Assembly (NCBI GenBank): GCA_024743255.1 | Contig: JANSWY010000006.1 | Coordinates: 11,610 to 75,609, forward strand | DNA from: a bacterium | Lineage (GTDB): Bacteria > Bacteroidota > Bacteroidia > Cytophagales > Cyclobacteriaceae | Reading direction: 5' to 3' | Length of the DNA stretch: 64,000 nucleotides | Part shown: positions 40,787 to 58,759 of the stretch, piece by piece | How positions within the stretch are numbered: position 1 is the first letter of the stretch | Layout of the letters: each line of letters opens with the position of its first letter | Translations under genes and position numbers: made by a program | Notes under the pieces: model-generated | What the model was told of the DNA's origin: nothing | Seen by the model: the letters and a program-made list of their open reading frames with translations, nothing else | The model's database searches: none

Positions 40787-42328
40787 ATGAAGATCCACTC
40801 TCATATCCTTAAAATAGCGCTATTTGCCACCGGGCTGTCTGGTATTGTAGCAGAATATGTGCTTTCAACCCTTGCCACATACTTCCTTGGAGATTCAGTT
40901 TTTCAGTGGACGATGATTGTGTCTATCATGCTGTTCTCAATGGGATTGGGAAGCAGAATTAGTAAGTATCTTCTTAAGAACCTTATTGAGAAATTCGTCC
41001 TTATCGAATTTGTGCTTTCATTTCTGGCTGCCTTTGTTTCGGTAATTACTTATTTGTCAGCAGCATTTATTGGTATTGAAGGTTTGGTAATCTATTCATT
41101 AAGTGTGATAATCGGATTGCTTATAGGAATGGAAATTCCTTTAGTGATTAGACTCAATGATAAATATGAAGCACTGAGATCCAATATTTCCAGCGCTATG
41201 GAAAATGATTATTATGGAAGTCTATTAGGTGGAGTATTCTTTGCATTTGTTGGCCTCCCCTATCTTGGACTGACTTATACTCCTTTCATTCTGGGCACAG
41301 TAAATCTTTGTGTGGCACTCACATTGATGTTTATGCTATGGAAACAGCTGGAAAAGAAGACCCGAGTAAAGCTTGGAAGTGCTGCTGTGATAGTAGTGCT
41401 GCTGCTAACTACAGGTTCAATGTTTGCTAAAAGAACAATTGAATATGGTGAAAACAGAAGGTATGCAGATAAAGTCATCTACACTGAGCAGACGCCTTAT
41501 CAAAGAATAACAATTACACAATCTCACGGAGAGTTTTGGTTATTTATCAACGGAAACCAACAACTTAGCACCATAGATGAAGTGATGTATCACGAACCTC
41601 TGGTTCATCCTGTTATGAGACTTTCTCCAGATGCTAAAGACATACTGGTTCTTGGGGGCGGTGACGGTGGAGCAGTCAGGGAAATATTAAAATACAATAC
41701 AGTCAAATCCATCACACTGGTAGATTTAGATCCTGCAATGACTCAACTGGGGCAAACCTATCCCCTGCTTGTGGAGATGAATCAAAATGCTATGAATCAT
41801 CCAATGGTTGAGATCATCAATACCGACGGTTACAATTATCTTGAAGATTCCAAAAAGTTCTTTGATGCGATTATAATTGACCTGCCTGATCCAAAATCAA
41901 TAGAGCTTGGGAGGTTATATTCTTATGAATTCTATAAGATCTGTTATCGCCAATTAAGACCTCATGGAATAATCATTACTCAGGCTGGAAGTCCCTATTA
42001 CGCTGCAAAAGCTTTCAATTGTATCGACAAAACAATGGAGGAAGCAGGTTTCACTACTGCTCCATTACACAATCAGGTGGTAACACTTGGTGAATGGGGC
42101 TGGGTACTAGGTGCAAAGGAAATCGCTAAATCCAGGCTTAAAGAGAAACTGCAAGAATTAGATTTTGAAGGAGTAGAAACGCGATGGATCAATAAAGATG
42201 CAATGACGCTGATTACTTCCTTTGGCAAGGCTGCATTTCCAGAAGCTACTGACTCAGTTGAGATCAATAAGATTCACAATCCGGTCCTTTACAAGTATTA
42301 CCTGGATGGGAAGTGGGACTTATATTAG
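40787..42328 (+). CDS. speE: Membrane-anchored spermidine-synthase-like polyamine aminopropyltransferase (N-terminal multi-TM domain + SpeE fold)
   Basis: Roughly 200-aa N-terminal domain with 6-7 TM helices. SpeE core motifs ILVLGGGDGGAVREILKY, ITLVDLDPAMT, FDAIIIDLPDP. Confidence 0.7.
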   Translation: MKIHSHILKIALFATGLSGIVAEYVLSTLATYFLGDSVFQWTMIVSIMLFSMGLGSRISKYLLKNLIEKFVLIEFVLSFLAAFVSVITYLSAAFIGIEGLVIYSLSVIIGLLIGMEIPLVIRLNDKYEALRSNISSAMENDYYGSLLGGVFFAFVGLPYLGLTYTPFILGTVNLCVALTLMFMLWKQLEKKTRVKLGSAAVIVVLLLTTGSMFAKRTIEYGENRRYADKVIYTEQTPYQRITITQSHGEFWLFINGNQQLSTIDEVMYHEPLVHPVMRLSPDAKDILVLGGGDGGAVREILKYNTVKSITLVDLDPAMTQLGQTYPLLVEMNQNAMNHPMVEIINTDGYNYLEDSKKFFDAIIIDLPDPKSIELGRLYSYEFYKICYRQLRPHGIIITQAGSPYYAAKAFNCIDKTMEEAGFTTAPLHNQVVTLGEWGWVLGAKEIAKSRLKEKLQELDFEGVETRWINKDAMTLITSFGKAAFPEATDSVEINKIHNPVLYKYYLDGKWDLY

Positions 42329-53272: not shown

Positions 53273-53722
53273 ATGCACAAGCTGAAGAGAATAGCTACAA
53301 AATATCTACCATCAACTCTGTTTTTAGTTTTTATAGGTTGGATTATTTACGATGCGGATCTAGGAAGGGATAACCTATTTCTTTCCATTGGTGAAAAAGT
53401 GCCTTTCGGTGATAAGTTTGGTCACTTTTTCATCTTTGGATTGCTCTGTTATTTGGTTAACCATATCTTCAATAAAAAGAGTTTGAAAATATTCAATGCC
53501 AAAGTCTATCTGGCCAGCATTCTAGTTTTGAGCTTTGCTATACTTGAAGAATTCACACAGCTGGCATTTGAAGACCGGAATTTTGATGTGTTTGATATGA
53601 TATGTGATGTTTTCGGAGTAGCAGCATTTACAATTCTATATAATATTAAGGAAATGCTTATTCGAATTCCCAAACCGGTTTGGAAAAGAATTAGAAGGGA
53701 AATGTTGAGAGGTCTCTATTAA
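53273..53722 (+). CDS. VanZ-family membrane protein
   Basis: 4-TM, 149 aa, GDKFGHFFIFGLL motif. Confidence 0.55.
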   Translation: MHKLKRIATKYLPSTLFLVFIGWIIYDADLGRDNLFLSIGEKVPFGDKFGHFFIFGLLCYLVNHIFNKKSLKIFNAKVYLASILVLSFAILEEFTQLAFEDRNFDVFDMICDVFGVAAFTILYNIKEMLIRIPKPVWKRIRREMLRGLY

Positions 53723-53725
53723 TAT

Positions 53726-54526
53726 TTAATTTGTAACGATTGGAATATTATCACCTTTTAACCAATGTTTCATCAATTCTTCATTTCGAGTAATTGCCCC
53801 CAGATAATAATCAAAAGAATAATAGAATGCCTCTGAATAACTAGCTAGTTCAATTACCACCTCATTTGGAAATCCATAATTAGAGTGAAGGAAGAACACC
53901 TCTCCCATAGTATAATATATAAACCCAACATGATTGCTAAGGCCAACAATGTACAGACCTTCAGGTAACAACTTGATCTTTTCAATTACGTCTGCGGACT
54001 GCACACTACGAAAAGCATGATATTCATTCTTTCCTACTACAGTTTTCACTTCATGCAAAGAAGCTTGTTGCGCCATTTTATAACGATTCCAATTAATCCC
54101 CATATGTTTCATAGTAGTTGAAACAAAATAACCGCAAGCGATAAATCCTTCATTAGGCTTATCGGTGTACCCGTCAAAATCCCATGGTGTACCATACCAA
54201 TGTGGAATAATGGAATTGACAAGCGTTTGTTCAAAGTAGCGGCTTACTGAATCAATTGTGATCTCACCAGATTCATACAAGGCTTTCATCTTTAAACGGT
54301 CTTGATCGATTTTGGCCTTTAAGGAATTGTAGGAGCCTTCCGGTGCATCAATTATGATGTTATATTTTTCAAAATTGACTTCTTCGAATTCTGGTTTTGG
54401 CGTGTAAGATTGATGATTTGAAAAATCTACCTGGGCCCAAAATGCTTCGATAGAATCAGTTTGGGCCTTCGCCATAGTAACTACGAGTAACAAAAGGACC
54501 AGAGAGAGGTGTGGTTCTTTACGCAT
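53726..54526 (-). CDS. Hypothetical secreted protein
   Basis: Signal peptide MRKEPHLSLVLLLLVVTMAKAQ. No domain recognised. Confidence 0.35.
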   Translation of the reverse strand: MRKEPHLSLVLLLLVVTMAKAQTDSIEAFWAQVDFSNHQSYTPKPEFEEVNFEKYNIIIDAPEGSYNSLKAKIDQDRLKMKALYESGEITIDSVSRYFEQTLVNSIIPHWYGTPWDFDGYTDKPNEGFIACGYFVSTTMKHMGINWNRYKMAQQASLHEVKTVVGKNEYHAFRSVQSADVIEKIKLLPEGLYIVGLSNHVGFIYYTMGEVFFLHSNYGFPNEVVIELASYSEAFYYSFDYYLGAITRNEELMKHWLKGDNIPIVTN

Positions 54527-54798
54527 AACACAATAAAATCGAGTTTACAAAATAAGTAGGCTCAGGTAGGGATTACTCACATAACGTGCTTTGAAGTTTC
54601 TTTATTGAATAAAGACCTAATTATGAGGATCAAAGAAATCCATTTTGGTCTTTTCATACTGAAGATGTGTTGTGTAGCGGTTTGAGATTTTGTTAAAGTT
54701 TGCATCTTAAGTTTTTTGATTTTCAACTATAGGATGCAGGTGGAATTGGGATTCCATAAAACTTTAATAAAAAAGAAAAATATTTTTTCTATGACCTA

Positions 54799-56115
54799 TT
54801 AGAAAAGCATCATTATATCTTGTATCACAACAAATACCATCAAGCCAATTATTAAAACAAATGGTACCAGACGAACCTTTCTAAAAGCGGCTGCACTCAT
54901 GGCCCTTTTGCTAAAAAACTCATATATAAGTGGAATAACTTCCATGATTGCTGCTTTAGGAATAGGTAGAAGATTATAGAATAATGTGATCATAAGAAAT
55001 AAGCCAGTTATTCTCAAAAAACGAATCCAATCAATCCCGTCTTTTCCACCATATATCTTAGCAATTGATATAGGGCCATTTACATTTTTTCTTGGATCTA
55101 CGTCACCAACAAACATTATTCTAAGTGCCCGAACATTTACATATATAATTGAAAATGCTTCCTTCGTCCCATGAAAACATGCTTGTAGAACTGATCTTTG
55201 AACCGACTCAGGTTCAATCAATCTATTAATGAAAAATCCAATTTTCCCATCTTCATCAACCAAAACATCTAATTCCAAAACTTCACCAGATCGGTTAATA
55301 GTTAATTTCGCTGTATCTAATGATTTTTCTTCAAGTATTTCACTGAAAGGTGGCAATCCAGCTACAGGACTATTGTCAATCTCGATAATTTTATCACCCT
55401 TTTCAAGACCTGCGATTGCGGCATTTGTGTACTCCGGAACCATTCCTACTTCAAATGGATAATTGAGTTCAAAGACAGATCGATAACCATGGTCTAACCC
55501 CGAGCCATCAAAAGTAATTTCCAAAGTATCGGTTCCTCTTAATATGGTATAATTAGCCCTGTTTGAATTAATAACATGTGGTGAAATCAGGTCATCAAAC
55601 CTTTCGTATTCTTCACCATTCAACTTTATAACCTTATCACCACTTTTGAACCCAACCTCTTTGCCAAATTCTCCCGGGTGAATACCCATATCGATTGTAT
55701 GGGCCCGAGAATAATACGTGTCTTTTGTTAGGTAGGAAAGCACAACAAATATTAAAACACCAATGAATAAAGAGGCTATCATTCCTCCAAATGTCGCAAT
55801 TAACCTCTTCCAGATTGGAGTCTCATGGAATTCCCAAGGCAACCCCAGTTTGTGCTTTTCTCCATCTACGACAGCATACAATTTTGCTAACCAGGGAAGA
55901 GGAATAAAAAATCCCACAGATACTTCAACTCCCTTGTATTTAAAGCCAAAAAGCTTTTTCCCGAATCCCAGAAATATGTGTTCATCAATTGTATAGAACC
56001 AAAACGAGAATAACAATCTTCCCAAAAAATAGACGGTTCCTAAAATGGAGATTCCAAGAAGATATTGAATTACAAGTATTGTAGAGTCTGACATTGGCAA
56101 TGAAATTTGCCACAA
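54799..56115 (-). CDS. RseP-family (site-2 protease, M50) homolog with both zinc-binding motifs replaced; two PDZ domains
   Basis: GPISIAK block is identical to E. coli RseP. An ungapped alignment places TVYFLGR where RseP has TVHEFGH, 21 residues before the conserved GFGK. NLLPIPKAAIMEV sits where RseP has NLFPLPVLDGGHL. Two PDZ-like segments (GDKVIKLNGEEY, GDKIIEIDNSPVAG). Confidence 0.6.
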   Translation of the reverse strand: MWQISLPMSDSTILVIQYLLGISILGTVYFLGRLLFSFWFYTIDEHIFLGFGKKLFGFKYKGVEVSVGFFIPLPWLAKLYAVVDGEKHKLGLPWEFHETPIWKRLIATFGGMIASLFIGVLIFVVLSYLTKDTYYSRAHTIDMGIHPGEFGKEVGFKSGDKVIKLNGEEYERFDDLISPHVINSNRANYTILRGTDTLEITFDGSGLDHGYRSVFELNYPFEVGMVPEYTNAAIAGLEKGDKIIEIDNSPVAGLPPFSEILEEKSLDTAKLTINRSGEVLELDVLVDEDGKIGFFINRLIEPESVQRSVLQACFHGTKEAFSIIYVNVRALRIMFVGDVDPRKNVNGPISIAKIYGGKDGIDWIRFLRITGLFLMITLFYNLLPIPKAAIMEVIPLIYEFFSKRAMSAAAFRKVRLVPFVLIIGLMVFVVIQDIMMLF

Positions 56116-56133
56116 TGATAGTAAAAGTTTAAA

Positions 56134-57651
56134 TCAATCCTGCATCACTCTGACAGCTTCCAATCCACTATCAACAGCTTCCATCAAAATAGGTAACCTG
56201 GCATTATCTACCCCGGCAAAGGCGATCTTATTTTTAGCAGTTTCAATGTTTACATTTCTAAACAAATGTCCAGGTTTAGGTATTGCCATAGCATGTCCCA
56301 TAGCATTGATCAATACCGATTCTAGTCTTGGTTCTATTGATTCACCAAAGTAGGCGTCCAGGTATGACATTGTTTTCTGAACGATGACTTCTTTATTTTC
56401 AGAAACCTTGGATGCAAACTCTCTTTGGCCAGAAGGTAAGCAGTAATAAGCTGTCAGTACTTGTTTATCCTGAATCTTCCTATGTTGAACGTTTGAATTG
56501 ATGAATCCCAGGAATGATTGATCATCCACAATCATTTCATTTTGCCAGAAACCAAAATCATCAAATGGTTTGTGGAGCACAAAATTCATGACAAGCCATG
56601 GAGCGTATTCATTGTTAAAAAACAGTGGAGCATATTCCGGAGCAATAAACTTCAAAGCATGCTTCTGACCAGCATAAATTACCTTATCGCTTATTACCTT
56701 CTTGATCGTTCTATTTTGAACATCAATCACTTCAGCAATCCATTTCTCCCCTTCCCTCTCTAGTGATTTTACCACATGTCCGGTCAATAGCTGCTCTTTG
56801 GATATTCCATTTGACATTTTGTCAATGAAATAACTATTCCCTTGAGGTGGTGAAAAGAGCTGAACTATCTCCTTATAGTATGGCCGGCATTTGAAATAAT
56901 GTATTCCAGCTAATGCGCTGACCTGACTTGCTGTTCCTCCCCAATCATCTAGCATATGATAATCCAGACCCCTGATGAACGAGTCAGACAGCTTAATTTT
57001 CTCTTTTAAAAAATCTATGAAAGTAACATCATTCAGATAATGCAACGATTCGTCAACCAAACGAGTGGGCATTACCATTTGATCACTGAATTCGTCCATT
57101 AGTTTCAGAAAATCATCTTTTATTGGGCCTTCCTCTAATACATCCGCCCTAAATGTTCCATGATCGAAGCACTTATTTTTGATTCCGTCTGGGACCACAT
57201 ATTGTTCATCTGTAAAGGCCCAACTGTGCTTCCATGGTTGATGGTAAATAATGTCCTTCTCTTCGAATAGAGATAGGATATCATCACCATAGTTCTCAGG
57301 ATACTCCAAATCATAATGAGCCCCCTGAGCTATTTTCATATCGTTATAGTTAGCTGATGCAGATGTACCTCCAAGGCGACTTGAAAGCTCGCACAACACA
57401 AAATCTTTTCCCTTAATGGAAGCCGCAGCGCTAATTCCCGCTATTCCACCACCAACAATCAAATATTCTGTTTCTATACTAGATCCCACTGGTATTGAAT
57501 AATCTCCAAACACCATGTGGCCTGAGTTCATATCATTGAAAATTTGGATATCACCATTAAACCCTTGCTGATTATTAATATCACAAGACTGGAGAATTGC
57601 CGGTAATGTTGGAAAGGCTGCCGCCAACTTTAGAAAATATCTTCTATCCAC
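56134..57651 (-). CDS. Tat-exported FAD-dependent oxidoreductase (amine-oxidase-like)
   Basis: Twin-arginine signal MDRRYFLKLAAAFPTLPAIL. Rossmann dinucleotide motif YLIVGGGIAGISAA. Flavin amine-oxidase-like size (505 aa). Confidence 0.5.
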   Translation of the reverse strand: MDRRYFLKLAAAFPTLPAILQSCDINNQQGFNGDIQIFNDMNSGHMVFGDYSIPVGSSIETEYLIVGGGIAGISAAASIKGKDFVLCELSSRLGGTSASANYNDMKIAQGAHYDLEYPENYGDDILSLFEEKDIIYHQPWKHSWAFTDEQYVVPDGIKNKCFDHGTFRADVLEEGPIKDDFLKLMDEFSDQMVMPTRLVDESLHYLNDVTFIDFLKEKIKLSDSFIRGLDYHMLDDWGGTASQVSALAGIHYFKCRPYYKEIVQLFSPPQGNSYFIDKMSNGISKEQLLTGHVVKSLEREGEKWIAEVIDVQNRTIKKVISDKVIYAGQKHALKFIAPEYAPLFFNNEYAPWLVMNFVLHKPFDDFGFWQNEMIVDDQSFLGFINSNVQHRKIQDKQVLTAYYCLPSGQREFASKVSENKEVIVQKTMSYLDAYFGESIEPRLESVLINAMGHAMAIPKPGHLFRNVNIETAKNKIAFAGVDNARLPILMEAVDSGLEAVRVMQD

Positions 57652-58759
57652 TTATCAATACTTTTTTAACATAAGGGTTCTTGTCATTCCCTTTCCATAT
57701 GAATCCATCTAATATGTAATGAGTTGCCTGAGGAATTGTTAACAAAGCAATCCCAGCTGCCTGAAGCCAAGGATTAGATAGGGCCTCTTTAGTAAGAGGC
57801 AAAACACTTCCAAAAAACGCTTCATTGTCCCTGTAAATCCATGCATCCCAGAGATATTCTTCTCCGAAGGCCAGAATCAATATGACCAATAACATCATTG
57901 ATACATGAACGATTACCGGACCAGGCTTTATGGTTCTCTTTTCCTCTTTGATCAATTTCTTTCTTTCGACATAAAAAAACACCAGCGCCATGTATGGCAG
58001 ACCATGTGCTACCACATTTGTTAAGGTGAATACGAGATCAGAGTTAAAGAATACGATTCCTATATACCAATTTCCCGCAGTAGTCAACAGCCACAGGATT
58101 TTGCCCCATGGAATATTAGTTTGATTTGCGCGAATTTCCTGAACAACCCACCATATCAAGAATCCCCAATAAATGATATTAGCTACTAATGTTATTTGAT
58201 AAAATAGCTGTTCGGATACCAATTTGTCAAGCAAAAAGAAATCTCCTTCAACAAACCATTCAAATTCTCTTGCCGGACTAAGATGCCAGTAAATCACTGG
58301 GTACAACATGGATAAGTAGATCATCCATTCGTCCTTGAGTATCTGTTTATGTCCTGATTTGTGTTTTGCTTTATAGATTCTTAAAAATCCATATTGTTGC
58401 TTTATGAAATGGTAAAGAGCCAAATATGCCAATATCGACCAGAATAGCATTTGCGAATAGCTGGCAACAAGAAACACAACCAGGAAAACTAATATTGGAG
58501 ACATTATTAGTAGTCTCTTATGTTGTCCAAATTCTTCTTTATCCAGGTAAGTCCTGAAAATAGTACTCCAAACATGGCTTACATCTATTCCAACCACAAC
58601 TACTACCCAAACCCATATAGCCACATCAGCTTGCAAAGTTTCGGATGGAAGCACAAAACAAACCAACCACACGACCCACACAGGAACAAACAATAGCAAA
58701 ATATCGATTGACCTTCCAAAAAGCCATATGTTTTTATTTGAACTCATTAAAATGCCCAA
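57644..58759 (-). CDS. Hypothetical Trp-rich polytopic membrane protein
   Basis: 371 aa, roughly 9 TM helices. Overlaps both flanking genes, so it is operonic. Confidence 0.4.
   Translation of the reverse strand: MGILMSSNKNIWLFGRSIDILLLFVPVWVVWLVCFVLPSETLQADVAIWVWVVVVVGIDVSHVWSTIFRTYLDKEEFGQHKRLLIMSPILVFLVVFLVASYSQMLFWSILAYLALYHFIKQQYGFLRIYKAKHKSGHKQILKDEWMIYLSMLYPVIYWHLSPAREFEWFVEGDFFLLDKLVSEQLFYQITLVANIIYWGFLIWWVVQEIRANQTNIPWGKILWLLTTAGNWYIGIVFFNSDLVFTLTNVVAHGLPYMALVFFYVERKKLIKEEKRTIKPGPVIVHVSMMLLVILILAFGEEYLWDAWIYRDNEAFFGSVLPLTKEALSNPWLQAAGIALLTIPQATHYILDGFIWKGNDKNPYVKKVLISG

What the first reader, a model, noticed from the sequence alone, without database searches (positions are those of the whole stretch)
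54799..56115. RseP/site-2 protease homolog with both catalytic zinc-binding motifs replaced (likely pseudo-protease)
The protein is unmistakably M50/RseP-like (GPISIAK identical to E. coli RseP, two PDZ domains, matching TM topology). However, HEFGH is replaced by YFLGR and the LDG motif by AAI; the aligned blocks are quoted in the feature entry. Loss of both zinc ligand sets implies no proteolysis. It may be a regulatory or scaffolding pseudo-enzyme. It sits immediately downstream of the polyamine/K+ channel operon.
Basis: partly seen in the sequence, partly recalled or inferred. Interest (0 to 1): 0.6.

Follow-up and report, generated by a model that had tools for sequence, protein, structure and literature searches.

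The report
Catalytically dead RseP-like membrane pseudoprotease
This gene encodes a full-length copy of the membrane protease RseP whose zinc-binding active site has been completely replaced, and it belongs to a large, apparently unnamed group of such 'dead' RseP copies in Bacteroidota that selection still maintains.

Summary
The ORF at 54799-56094(-) (431 aa from ATG; the ORF extends to TTG at 56115) has the full RseP fold. HExxH is replaced by YFLGR and PxLDGGH by PKAAIME.

It is not a decaying gene. dN/dS among three orthologues is 0.18-0.24, and only 0.03-0.13 in the segment holding the former active site.

It is not an isolated oddity. An exhaustive HMMER search found at least 57 cluster representatives (50% identity) with the same loss. 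They form one clade (200/200 bootstraps) nested among Bacteroidota RsePs. Pfam and NCBIfam have no dedicated model for them.

The same MAG very probably also has a normal dxr-linked RseP, 1,407 protein accessions away. This is not proven.

The link to the polyamine operon is secondary. The closest relative has the same operon and flanks without this gene, and other clade members sit in unrelated contexts.

Most likely it binds but does not cleave membrane-protein segments, as a bacterial counterpart of iRhom or EGY3. That function is inferred, not shown.

The parts
54799..56094 (-). Coding sequence of the degenerate RseP-like protein: 431 aa from ATG 56094, with the ORF open to TTG 56115. Predicted layout: TM1 (residues 3-32), beta-hairpin region (39-61), TM2 (94-122), PDZ tandem, PCT helices (302-348), TM3 (356-395), TM4 (401-430).
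56017..56031 (-). YFLGR (residues 22-26) in TM1, at the position of the HExxH motif. Both His ligands and the catalytic Glu are lost. Tyr at the first position is present in 86% of the degenerate clade.
55960..55968 (-). GFG (residues 43-45). This is the C1N substrate-binding motif of RseP, and it is retained. It is part of the clade signature HYFLGFG.
55882..55905 (-). IPLPWLAK (residues 64-71), replacing the conserved IPLGG(F/Y)VK of the membrane-reentrant beta-loop region. The model still predicts beta strands here.
55201..55728 (-). PDZ tandem (residues 123-298), with the G(F/L)xxGD cores kept.
55057..55077 (-). GPISIAK (residues 340-346) in the PDZ-C-terminal helical region. It is identical to E. 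coli RseP.
54940..54975 (-). NLLPIPKAAIME (residues 374-385) in TM3. The NxxPxP kink is retained, and LDGGH (Asp is the third zinc ligand) is replaced.
56095..56133 (-). 39-nt gap to the upstream amine-oxidase gene. No terminator-like site was found here, so co-transcription is likely (inferred).
56134..57651 (-). Upstream FAD amine-oxidase gene, the last ancestral gene of the polyamine-type operon. In the nearest relative it is followed directly by the conserved spacer, with no M50 gene.
54527..54798 (-). Conserved non-coding spacer downstream of the M50 gene. It marks the distal boundary of the insertion and aligns with the amine-oxidase-to-255aa spacer of L097.

Best explanation
The gene encodes a catalytically dead paralogue of the site-2 protease RseP (M50, group I). 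It belongs to an old, diverse, monophyletic clade of such proteins in Bacteroidota. The clade kept the whole RseP scaffold: four-TM core, GFG/beta-hairpin region, PDZ tandem, PCT helices and the TM3 NxxPxP kink. It replaced every residue of the zinc catalytic centre. The gene is expressed and maintained by purifying selection, which is strongest on the N-terminal membrane segment. Inferred mechanism: it still takes single-pass membrane-protein or peptide segments into the former active-site cleft but cannot cut them. It would then act as a non-cleaving receptor, decoy or holdase, or as a partner that modulates membrane-protein fate, possibly in competition with the organism's real RseP. In this lineage the gene was inserted behind a polyamine-type operon and is probably co-transcribed with it. 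That placement is secondary. Shown here: the fold, the loss of the catalytic centre, the selection, the clade and the insertion. Inferred: substrate binding without cleavage, and any regulatory role.
For: Fold: AF2 pLDDT 86, pTM 0.83; Foldseek TM 0.74 to Aquifex RseP and 0.69 to E. coli RseP. Catalytic loss: alignments to solved RsePs and to 95 intact homologues show HExxH, TM2 Asn, GMxDE and LDGGH all replaced, while GFG, PWEF, the PDZ cores, GPIxIA, NxxPxP, E392 and D426 are kept. Selection: dN/dS 0.18-0.24 overall against 0.06-0.12 in neighbouring genes, and 0.03-0.13 in residues 1-122. The replacement motifs are identical in the three orthologues. Clade: 57 of the top 150 exhaustive-HMMER representatives lack both motifs, with recurrent replacements Y-x-x-G-x and P-[KR]-S-A-F-W-E. 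37 full-length members are monophyletic against 95 intact RsePs in 200/200 NJ bootstraps. Second intact RseP: P0371 = MCR9251549.1, '[bacterium]', in dxr-rseP context with HELGH and LDGGH. It is 1,407 accessions from MCR9250142.1, and its contigs have GC 0.375-0.387 against 0.372 for the window. Insertion: L097 has identical synteny on both sides without the gene, and the conserved spacer defines the junction. Precedents: EGY3 (PMC10978774) and iRhoms (PMC3149277). Substrate-handling elements of RseP: PMC7728848.
Against: No experiment bears on binding or function. Co-residence of the intact RseP in the same genome rests on accession proximity, the shared label and GC content; the Logan samples carrying the two proteins differ. 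The phylogeny is distance-based NJ, and long-branch attraction among fast-evolving sequences cannot be excluded. By raw distance the window protein is about as close to intact Cytophagales RsePs as to its nearest degenerate relative. Only five genomic contexts of the clade were seen and they share nothing, so context gives no functional hint. Selection is 2-3 times more relaxed than on neighbouring genes.
Confidence: 0.7

Rival explanations
1. It is still an enzyme. The clade has built a new catalytic or metal site from residues it conserves on its own (Tyr22, His39, Tyr73, Lys80) together with retained Glu392 and Asp426. It would cleave or modify substrates by a non-canonical mechanism.
For: Clade-specific residues are strongly conserved: Y22 86%, H39 81%, Y73 92%, K80 86%, P140 97%. 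The N-terminal membrane segment has very low dN/dS, 0.03-0.13.
Against: All three zinc ligands, the general-base Glu and the conserved TM2 Asn are lost together. The positions aligned with E and the second H are variable within the clade. By predicted topology His39, Glu392 and Asp426 lie at different membrane depths; this is an inference, because model coordinates could not be inspected. I know of no M50 enzyme that works without HExxH (own knowledge).
Confidence: 0.08
2. It is a dedicated accessory of the polyamine/K+ channel operon. It could act as a membrane scaffold or chaperone for the membrane-anchored spermidine synthase, the 367-aa membrane protein or the exported amine oxidase.
For: It has the same orientation, lies 39 nt after the amine oxidase with no terminator-like site, and the arrangement is conserved in three genomes.
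Against: Orthologous operons in the closest relatives (L097, L098, Roseivirga L099) lack it. The three genomes that share it are close relatives, so conservation there is weak evidence. Other clade members sit next to unrelated genes: cytochrome c/DUF7133, an M48 peptidase, MFS transporters and a bacteriocin-type ABC exporter.
Confidence: 0.12
3. It is a decaying relic, meaning a duplicated rseP on its way to becoming a pseudogene, or it is the genome's own rseP after loss of function.
For: dN/dS is 2-3 times higher than in neighbouring genes. The score falls below the RseP equivalog cut-off.
Against: The full-length ORF is intact in three lineages separated by dS 0.2-0.4, with dN/dS about 0.2. 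The clade has dozens of full-length members at 25-39% identity with its own conserved signature. A separate intact dxr-linked RseP probably exists in the MAG.
Confidence: 0.05

Closest known systems
RseP / group I site-2 proteases (MEROPS M50B; E. coli RseP 7W6X, Aquifex aq_1964 9J82/9J83)
   Same: Same length and same predicted fold (TM 0.69-0.74). Same order of elements: TM1, C1N-GFG, beta-hairpin, TM2, PDZ-N, PDZ-C, PCT helices, TM3 with NxxPxP, TM4. GPISIAK is identical to E. coli RseP.
   Different: There is no HExxH, no LDG Asp, no TM2 Asn and no PLGG strand motif. The score is below the TIGR00054 cut-off. The gene is not next to dxr. It is presumably non-proteolytic.
EGY3 of Arabidopsis chloroplasts (S2P-family pseudoprotease; PMC10978774)
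   Same: It is an S2P-family member lacking the HExxH zinc motif and classed as a pseudoprotease. It exists as a paralogue alongside active S2Ps.
   Different: EGY3 is a plant EGY-type S2P without PDZ domains (own knowledge). This protein is a bacterial RseP-type with a PDZ tandem, and it lost the LDG ligand as well. Nothing indicates the two share a common origin for the loss.
iRhoms / Derlins (rhomboid-family pseudoproteases; PMC3149277)
   Same: The concept is the same: an intramembrane protease scaffold that lost its catalytic residues, is conserved as a clade, and in the case of iRhoms binds clients to regulate their fate.
   Different: The fold and catalytic class are unrelated (serine rhomboid against zinc S2P). 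This is an analogy of mechanism only, and it was not tested here.
Housekeeping RseP of the same lineage (P0371, MCR9251549.1, dxr-rseP)
   Same: 38% identical, same architecture, and probably the same genome.
   Different: P0371 has HELGH and NFLPIPALDGGH intact and sits in the conserved dxr context.

Membership tests
M50 / group I site-2 protease (RseP) | Four-TM core with a PDZ tandem between TM2 and TM3 and PCT helices before TM3 | tested here: met
   Pfam M50 plus PDZ. AF2 model pLDDT 86. Foldseek TM 0.74 and 0.69 to RseP structures.
M50 / group I site-2 protease (RseP) | HExxH zinc-binding/catalytic motif in TM1 | tested here: not met
   YFLGR lies at the aligned position, and no HExxH occurs in any frame.
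M50 / group I site-2 protease (RseP) | NxxPxxxLDG motif in TM3, with Asp as the third zinc ligand | tested here: not met
   NLLPIP is retained, but LDGGH is replaced by AAIME.
M50 / group I site-2 protease (RseP) | Score at or above the curated equivalog cut-off of TIGR00054 (147.55 bits) | tested here: not met
   111.3 bits. All 37 clade members hit the model; the best E-value is 4.1e-42.
M50 / group I site-2 protease (RseP) | dxr-rseP neighbourhood typical of Cytophagales orthologues | tested here: not met
   Intact homologues P0004, P0005, P0008, P0009 and P0371 all follow dxr. This gene follows an amine oxidase.
M50 / group I site-2 protease (RseP) | Zinc-dependent intramembrane proteolysis | not testable with these tools
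   This needs biochemistry.
Degenerate RseP-like clade of Bacteroidota (no curated name found) | Shared derived signature: Tyr at the first His position, HYFLGFG, P-x-x-L-[AS]-[KR] for PLGGFVK, and LP-x-P-[KR]-[SA]-A for LPIPALD | tested here: met
   Motif table and alignment. Differential conservation analysis.
Degenerate RseP-like clade of Bacteroidota (no curated name found) | Groups with the other degenerate proteins to the exclusion of intact RsePs | tested here: met
   NJ tree with 37 degenerate and 95 intact sequences gives the clade in 200/200 bootstraps. The window trio falls in subgroup A with P0383, P0384, P0386, P0390, P0400, P0407 and P0432.
Pseudoprotease (in the sense of iRhom, EGY3) | Homologue of an active protease family with the catalytic residues missing | tested here: met
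Pseudoprotease (in the sense of iRhom, EGY3) | Maintained by purifying selection, so not a pseudogene | tested here: met
   dN/dS 0.18-0.24 overall and 0.03-0.13 in residues 1-122.
Pseudoprotease (in the sense of iRhom, EGY3) | A demonstrated non-catalytic function, such as client binding or regulation | not testable with these tools
   No experimental data. Genomic contexts are uninformative.
Component of the polyamine/K+ channel operon | Present in orthologous operons of related genomes | tested here: not met
   Absent from L097, L098 and L099, which carry the same operon. Present only in the three closely related genomes.

The most novel reading that the evidence does not exclude
Bacteroidota carry a widespread, ancient clade of RseP-derived intramembrane pseudoproteases. 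These keep the substrate-capturing apparatus (PDZ filter, GFG/beta-hairpin, TM3 kink) and act as non-cleaving receptors. They would control the fate of single-pass membrane proteins or antagonise regulated intramembrane proteolysis by the true RseP. That would be a bacterial counterpart of iRhoms, Derlins and EGY3, and I did not find it described in the literature I could search.
Probability: 0.3. Interest if true: 0.75.

Novelty: new variant of a known kind. Interest (0 to 1): 0.55.

Why it matters
Site-2 proteases are the central switch of transmembrane signalling to ECF sigma factors in bacteria. A recent review states that all S2Ps contain HExxH and LDG (PMC10202637), and a 2024 review of metallopeptidase pseudoenzymes does not mention M50 at all (PMC11266112).

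A conserved, diverse clade of dead RseP paralogues would add a pseudoenzyme layer to bacterial intramembrane proteolysis. This is the layer that proved biologically important for rhomboids in eukaryotes.

It would also provide a natural 'substrate-trap' scaffold for studying how S2Ps recognise transmembrane segments.

On the practical side, annotation pipelines currently name these proteins 'RIP metalloprotease' or 'regulator of sigma E protease'. That wrongly implies catalytic activity.

Tried and rejected
1. The word-indexed homology search suggested only three degenerate sequences exist, with everything else intact. This was an artefact of the 5-mer index. The exhaustive HMMER search overturned it.

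2. I first read the gene as a recent duplicate of the lineage's own rseP, because the best intact hit P0004 comes from the same assembly as the closest no-M50 relative. I rejected this after the clade analysis.

It did not return the window's genome, so it gave no direct same-genome test.

4. P0008, the most similar intact RseP, comes from unrelated samples.

5. The family alignments A3, A4 and A5 were too diverse for the metagenome scan. A6 worked but gave only four degenerate loci.

6. I looked for a neighbour gene shared by clade members and found none. The window's 266-aa secreted protein is ancestral to the locus, not linked to the M50 gene. M48 peptidases lie near two members, but the similarity is only in the catalytic domain and I judged it coincidental.

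7. I considered a new metal site formed by H39, E392 and D426. By predicted topology this is unlikely, but I could not measure distances.

8. The sigma-70 promoter and terminator scan was uninformative, with counts at or below the shuffle expectation.

9. The Rfam search and folding of the conserved spacer gave no family and z = -1.3. The covariation test is underpowered, with only two effective sequences.

10. The AFDB fold library was unavailable.

11. Kinch et al. 2006, the S2P classification paper, is not held. I could not check whether it mentions inactive bacterial members. MEROPS 'non-peptidase homologue' listings could not be consulted either.

Full report
**Observation.** The window has an ORF at 54799..56115 on the minus strand: 438 aa from TTG, 431 aa from the ATG at 56094. 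The 431-aa form is identical to NCBI protein MCR9250142.1, annotated 'MAG: RIP metalloprotease [bacterium]'.
- It matches Pfam Peptidase_M50 (E 2e-18) and PDZ models. It matches the NCBIfam RseP equivalog TIGR00054 at 111 bits, below the curated cut-off of 147.55.
- Against solved structures the best matches are Aquifex aeolicus RseP (9J82/9J83, E 2e-21) and E. coli RseP (7W6X).
- In those alignments HEFGH lies over YFLGR, and NL(I/F)PxPxLDGG lies over NLLPIPKAAIM. GPISIAK is identical to the E. coli protein.
- No HExxH exists in any frame around the N-terminus, and only 39 nt separate the start from the upstream gene. No second M50 signature occurs in the window.

**Extent of the loss.** I compared 37 degenerate and 95 intact homologues column by column.
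- Lost in the degenerate proteins: the three residues of HExxH, a TM2 Asn that is 100% conserved in intact proteins, the G-M-x-D-E segment after the beta-hairpin, the second Gly of PLGG, and L-D-G-G-H in TM3.
- Retained: the GFG motif, PWEF, the WxRL/GG of TM2, both PDZ cores, GPIxIA, the NxxPxP kink of TM3, Glu392 and Asp426.
- According to PMC7728848, substrate handling in RseP involves the PDZ tandem, the C1N GFG motif, the membrane-reentrant beta-loop, the TM3 loop and the PCT amphiphilic helix. Most of these survive; the beta-loop region is kept in altered form, with PLGG(F/Y)VK replaced by PLPWLAK. The chemistry is gone.
- An AlphaFold2 model (pLDDT 86.2, pTM 0.83) has the full RseP layout. 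It superposes on Aquifex and E. coli RseP with TM-scores of 0.74 and 0.69.

**Not a decaying gene.** Two other lineages carry orthologues (P0002 and P0003, 85-87% identical) with identical replacement motifs and the same gene neighbourhood.
- Nei-Gojobori dN/dS is 0.18-0.24 for this gene, against 0.06-0.12 for the four neighbouring genes, at dS of 0.2-0.5.
- Split by region, the N-terminal membrane segment holds the former HExxH position and the GFG/beta-hairpin. It is the most constrained part, with omega 0.03-0.13.
- The PDZ tandem (0.26-0.31) and the PCT helices (0.34-0.40) are looser.

**Not an isolated oddity.** The word-indexed search found only the three close sequences without motifs, and every hit at 38% identity or less was intact.
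- The exhaustive HMMER search of 1.84 billion cluster representatives changed this. P0383 (325 bits) and P0384 (303 bits) outscore the best intact RseP (273 bits). In total, 57 of the top 150 representatives have neither motif.
- The replacements recur: Tyr at the first His (86%), HYFLGFG, P-x-x-L-[AS]-[KR] for PLGGFVK, and LPLP-[KR]-S-A-F-W-E for LPIPALDGGH.
- In an NJ tree the 37 full-length degenerate proteins form one clade against 95 intact RsePs in 200/200 bootstraps. The clade sits on a long stem (0.41) and is nested among Bacteroidota sequences. The window protein falls in the smaller subgroup.
- Named members are from Bacteroidota MAGs. They are called 'M50 family metallopeptidase', 'PDZ domain-containing protein' or 'regulator of sigma E protease'.
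- Pfam and NCBIfam have no dedicated model for the clade.

**A second, intact RseP.** The closest intact homologues all lie in a dxr-rseP arrangement, mostly preceded by a GH3 gene. A search seeded with P0004 recovered P0371, 'MAG: RIP metalloprotease RseP [bacterium]', accession MCR9251549.1.
- That accession is 1,407 numbers from MCR9250142.1.
- P0371 has HELGH and NFLPIPALDGGH intact and follows dxr.
- Its contigs have GC 0.375-0.387, close to the window's 0.372, whereas the other relatives are at 0.41-0.46.
- It shows the highest identity to the window protein of any intact RseP compared directly (38.4%).
- This makes co-residence in one MAG very likely. It is not proof, because the Logan samples that carry the two exact sequences differ.

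**Relation to the polyamine operon.** Upstream, in the same orientation, lie AdoMet decarboxylase, an ion channel, a membrane-anchored spermidine synthase, a 367-aa membrane protein without family, and an FAD amine oxidase.
- The amine oxidase has orthologues at 45-68% identity across Cytophagales.
- In the closest relative (L097, 68%) the synteny is identical on both sides, but no M50 gene lies between the amine oxidase and the ~260-aa gene. L098 and Roseivirga (L099) carry the same polyamine gene string and also lack it.
- The 272-nt spacer downstream of the M50 gene aligns with the amine-oxidase-to-255aa spacer of L097. The gene was therefore inserted exactly between the amine-oxidase stop and that spacer.
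- Other clade members sit in unrelated settings: behind a DUF7133/cytochrome-c gene, behind an M48 peptidase and two unknown genes, behind an unannotated 287-aa gene, or convergent with a bacteriocin-type ABC exporter.
- The operon link is therefore lineage-specific. It probably provides expression, since the gap is 39 nt with no terminator-like site, but not a function.

**Mechanism.** What is shown is an RseP scaffold without a catalytic centre, maintained by selection, old and diversified, and probably coexisting with an active RseP.
- I infer that it takes transmembrane segments into the former cleft and holds them rather than cutting them. It would act as a decoy, holdase or regulator.
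- Precedents for the concept are EGY3, an Arabidopsis S2P-family pseudoprotease lacking HExxH (PMC10978774), and the iRhoms (PMC3149277).
- Rival readings are a neo-enzyme with a new site, a dedicated polyamine-operon accessory, and a decaying relic. I rate them at 0.08, 0.12 and 0.05, for the reasons given in their entries.

**Novelty.** The 2023 review of bacterial S2Ps states that all S2Ps contain HExxH and LDG and mentions no inactive members. The 2024 review of metallopeptidase pseudoenzymes does not mention M50, S2P or EGY3.
- I could not read Kinch et al. 2006 or consult MEROPS, so prior listing as 'non-peptidase homologues' cannot be excluded.
- I classify the finding as a new variant of a known kind: a bacterial, RseP-type pseudoprotease clade.

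Noticed in passing
window 54527-54798 (read on the minus strand); also L002 9207-9478, L003 7199-7470, L097 10528-10794: This 272-nt non-coding spacer lies upstream of the 266-aa secreted-protein gene. It is nearly identical in three genomes whose flanking genes have dS 0.2-0.4. It aligns over about 240 nt with a genome whose proteins are only 51-68% identical. It has two 5' hairpins with invariant stems (GGAAU/AUUCC and CUGCAUC/GAUGCAG) and variable loops, plus blocks such as CACGTTATGT and CCTACCTGAGCCTA. There is no Rfam match, the fold z-score is -1.3, and the covariation test is underpowered. It may be a leader RNA, an sRNA or an operator region.
   Followed up: partly
window 57583-57651 (minus strand), the N-terminus of the amine oxidase gene 56134-57651: The FAD amine oxidase starts VDRRYFLKLAAAFPTLPAILQSC. 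This looks like a twin-arginine (RRxFLK) export signal followed by a lipobox-like LQSC, so the oxidase is probably exported with its cofactor and lipid-anchored outside the cytoplasm. This is read from the sequence only.
   Followed up: no
window 57644-58759 (minus strand): A 367-371-aa polytopic membrane protein lies between the spermidine synthase and the amine oxidase, overlapping both. It has no Pfam or NCBIfam match even at E = 1. It is highly conserved (dN/dS 0.06-0.08) and present in L097 and L098, but absent from the Roseivirga version of the operon (L099).
   Followed up: partly
L002 10431-13299, L003 8339-11288, L004 2911-5860, compared with window 53722-53726: The two sister lineages carry an M48 peptidase plus a DUF6770 gene between the 266-aa gene and the VanZ gene. 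In the window these two genes are absent and the 266-aa gene abuts VanZ. This is a second indel in the same small region.
   Followed up: no
L097 17010-19482, L098 13142-17032, L099 11640-15992: Relatives carry a second, divergently oriented polyamine-type cluster (DUF4178 / DUF350 / 513-aa spermidine-synthase-like) a few kb from the amine-oxidase operon. I did not check whether the window's 513-aa ORF at 40787-42328 is its counterpart.
   Followed up: no
P0001, P0383, P0384, P0397 (database annotations): Public pipelines name members of the dead clade 'RIP metalloprotease', 'M50 family metallopeptidase' or 'regulator of sigma E protease'. These names imply catalytic activity, although the proteins lack all zinc ligands.
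   Followed up: yes
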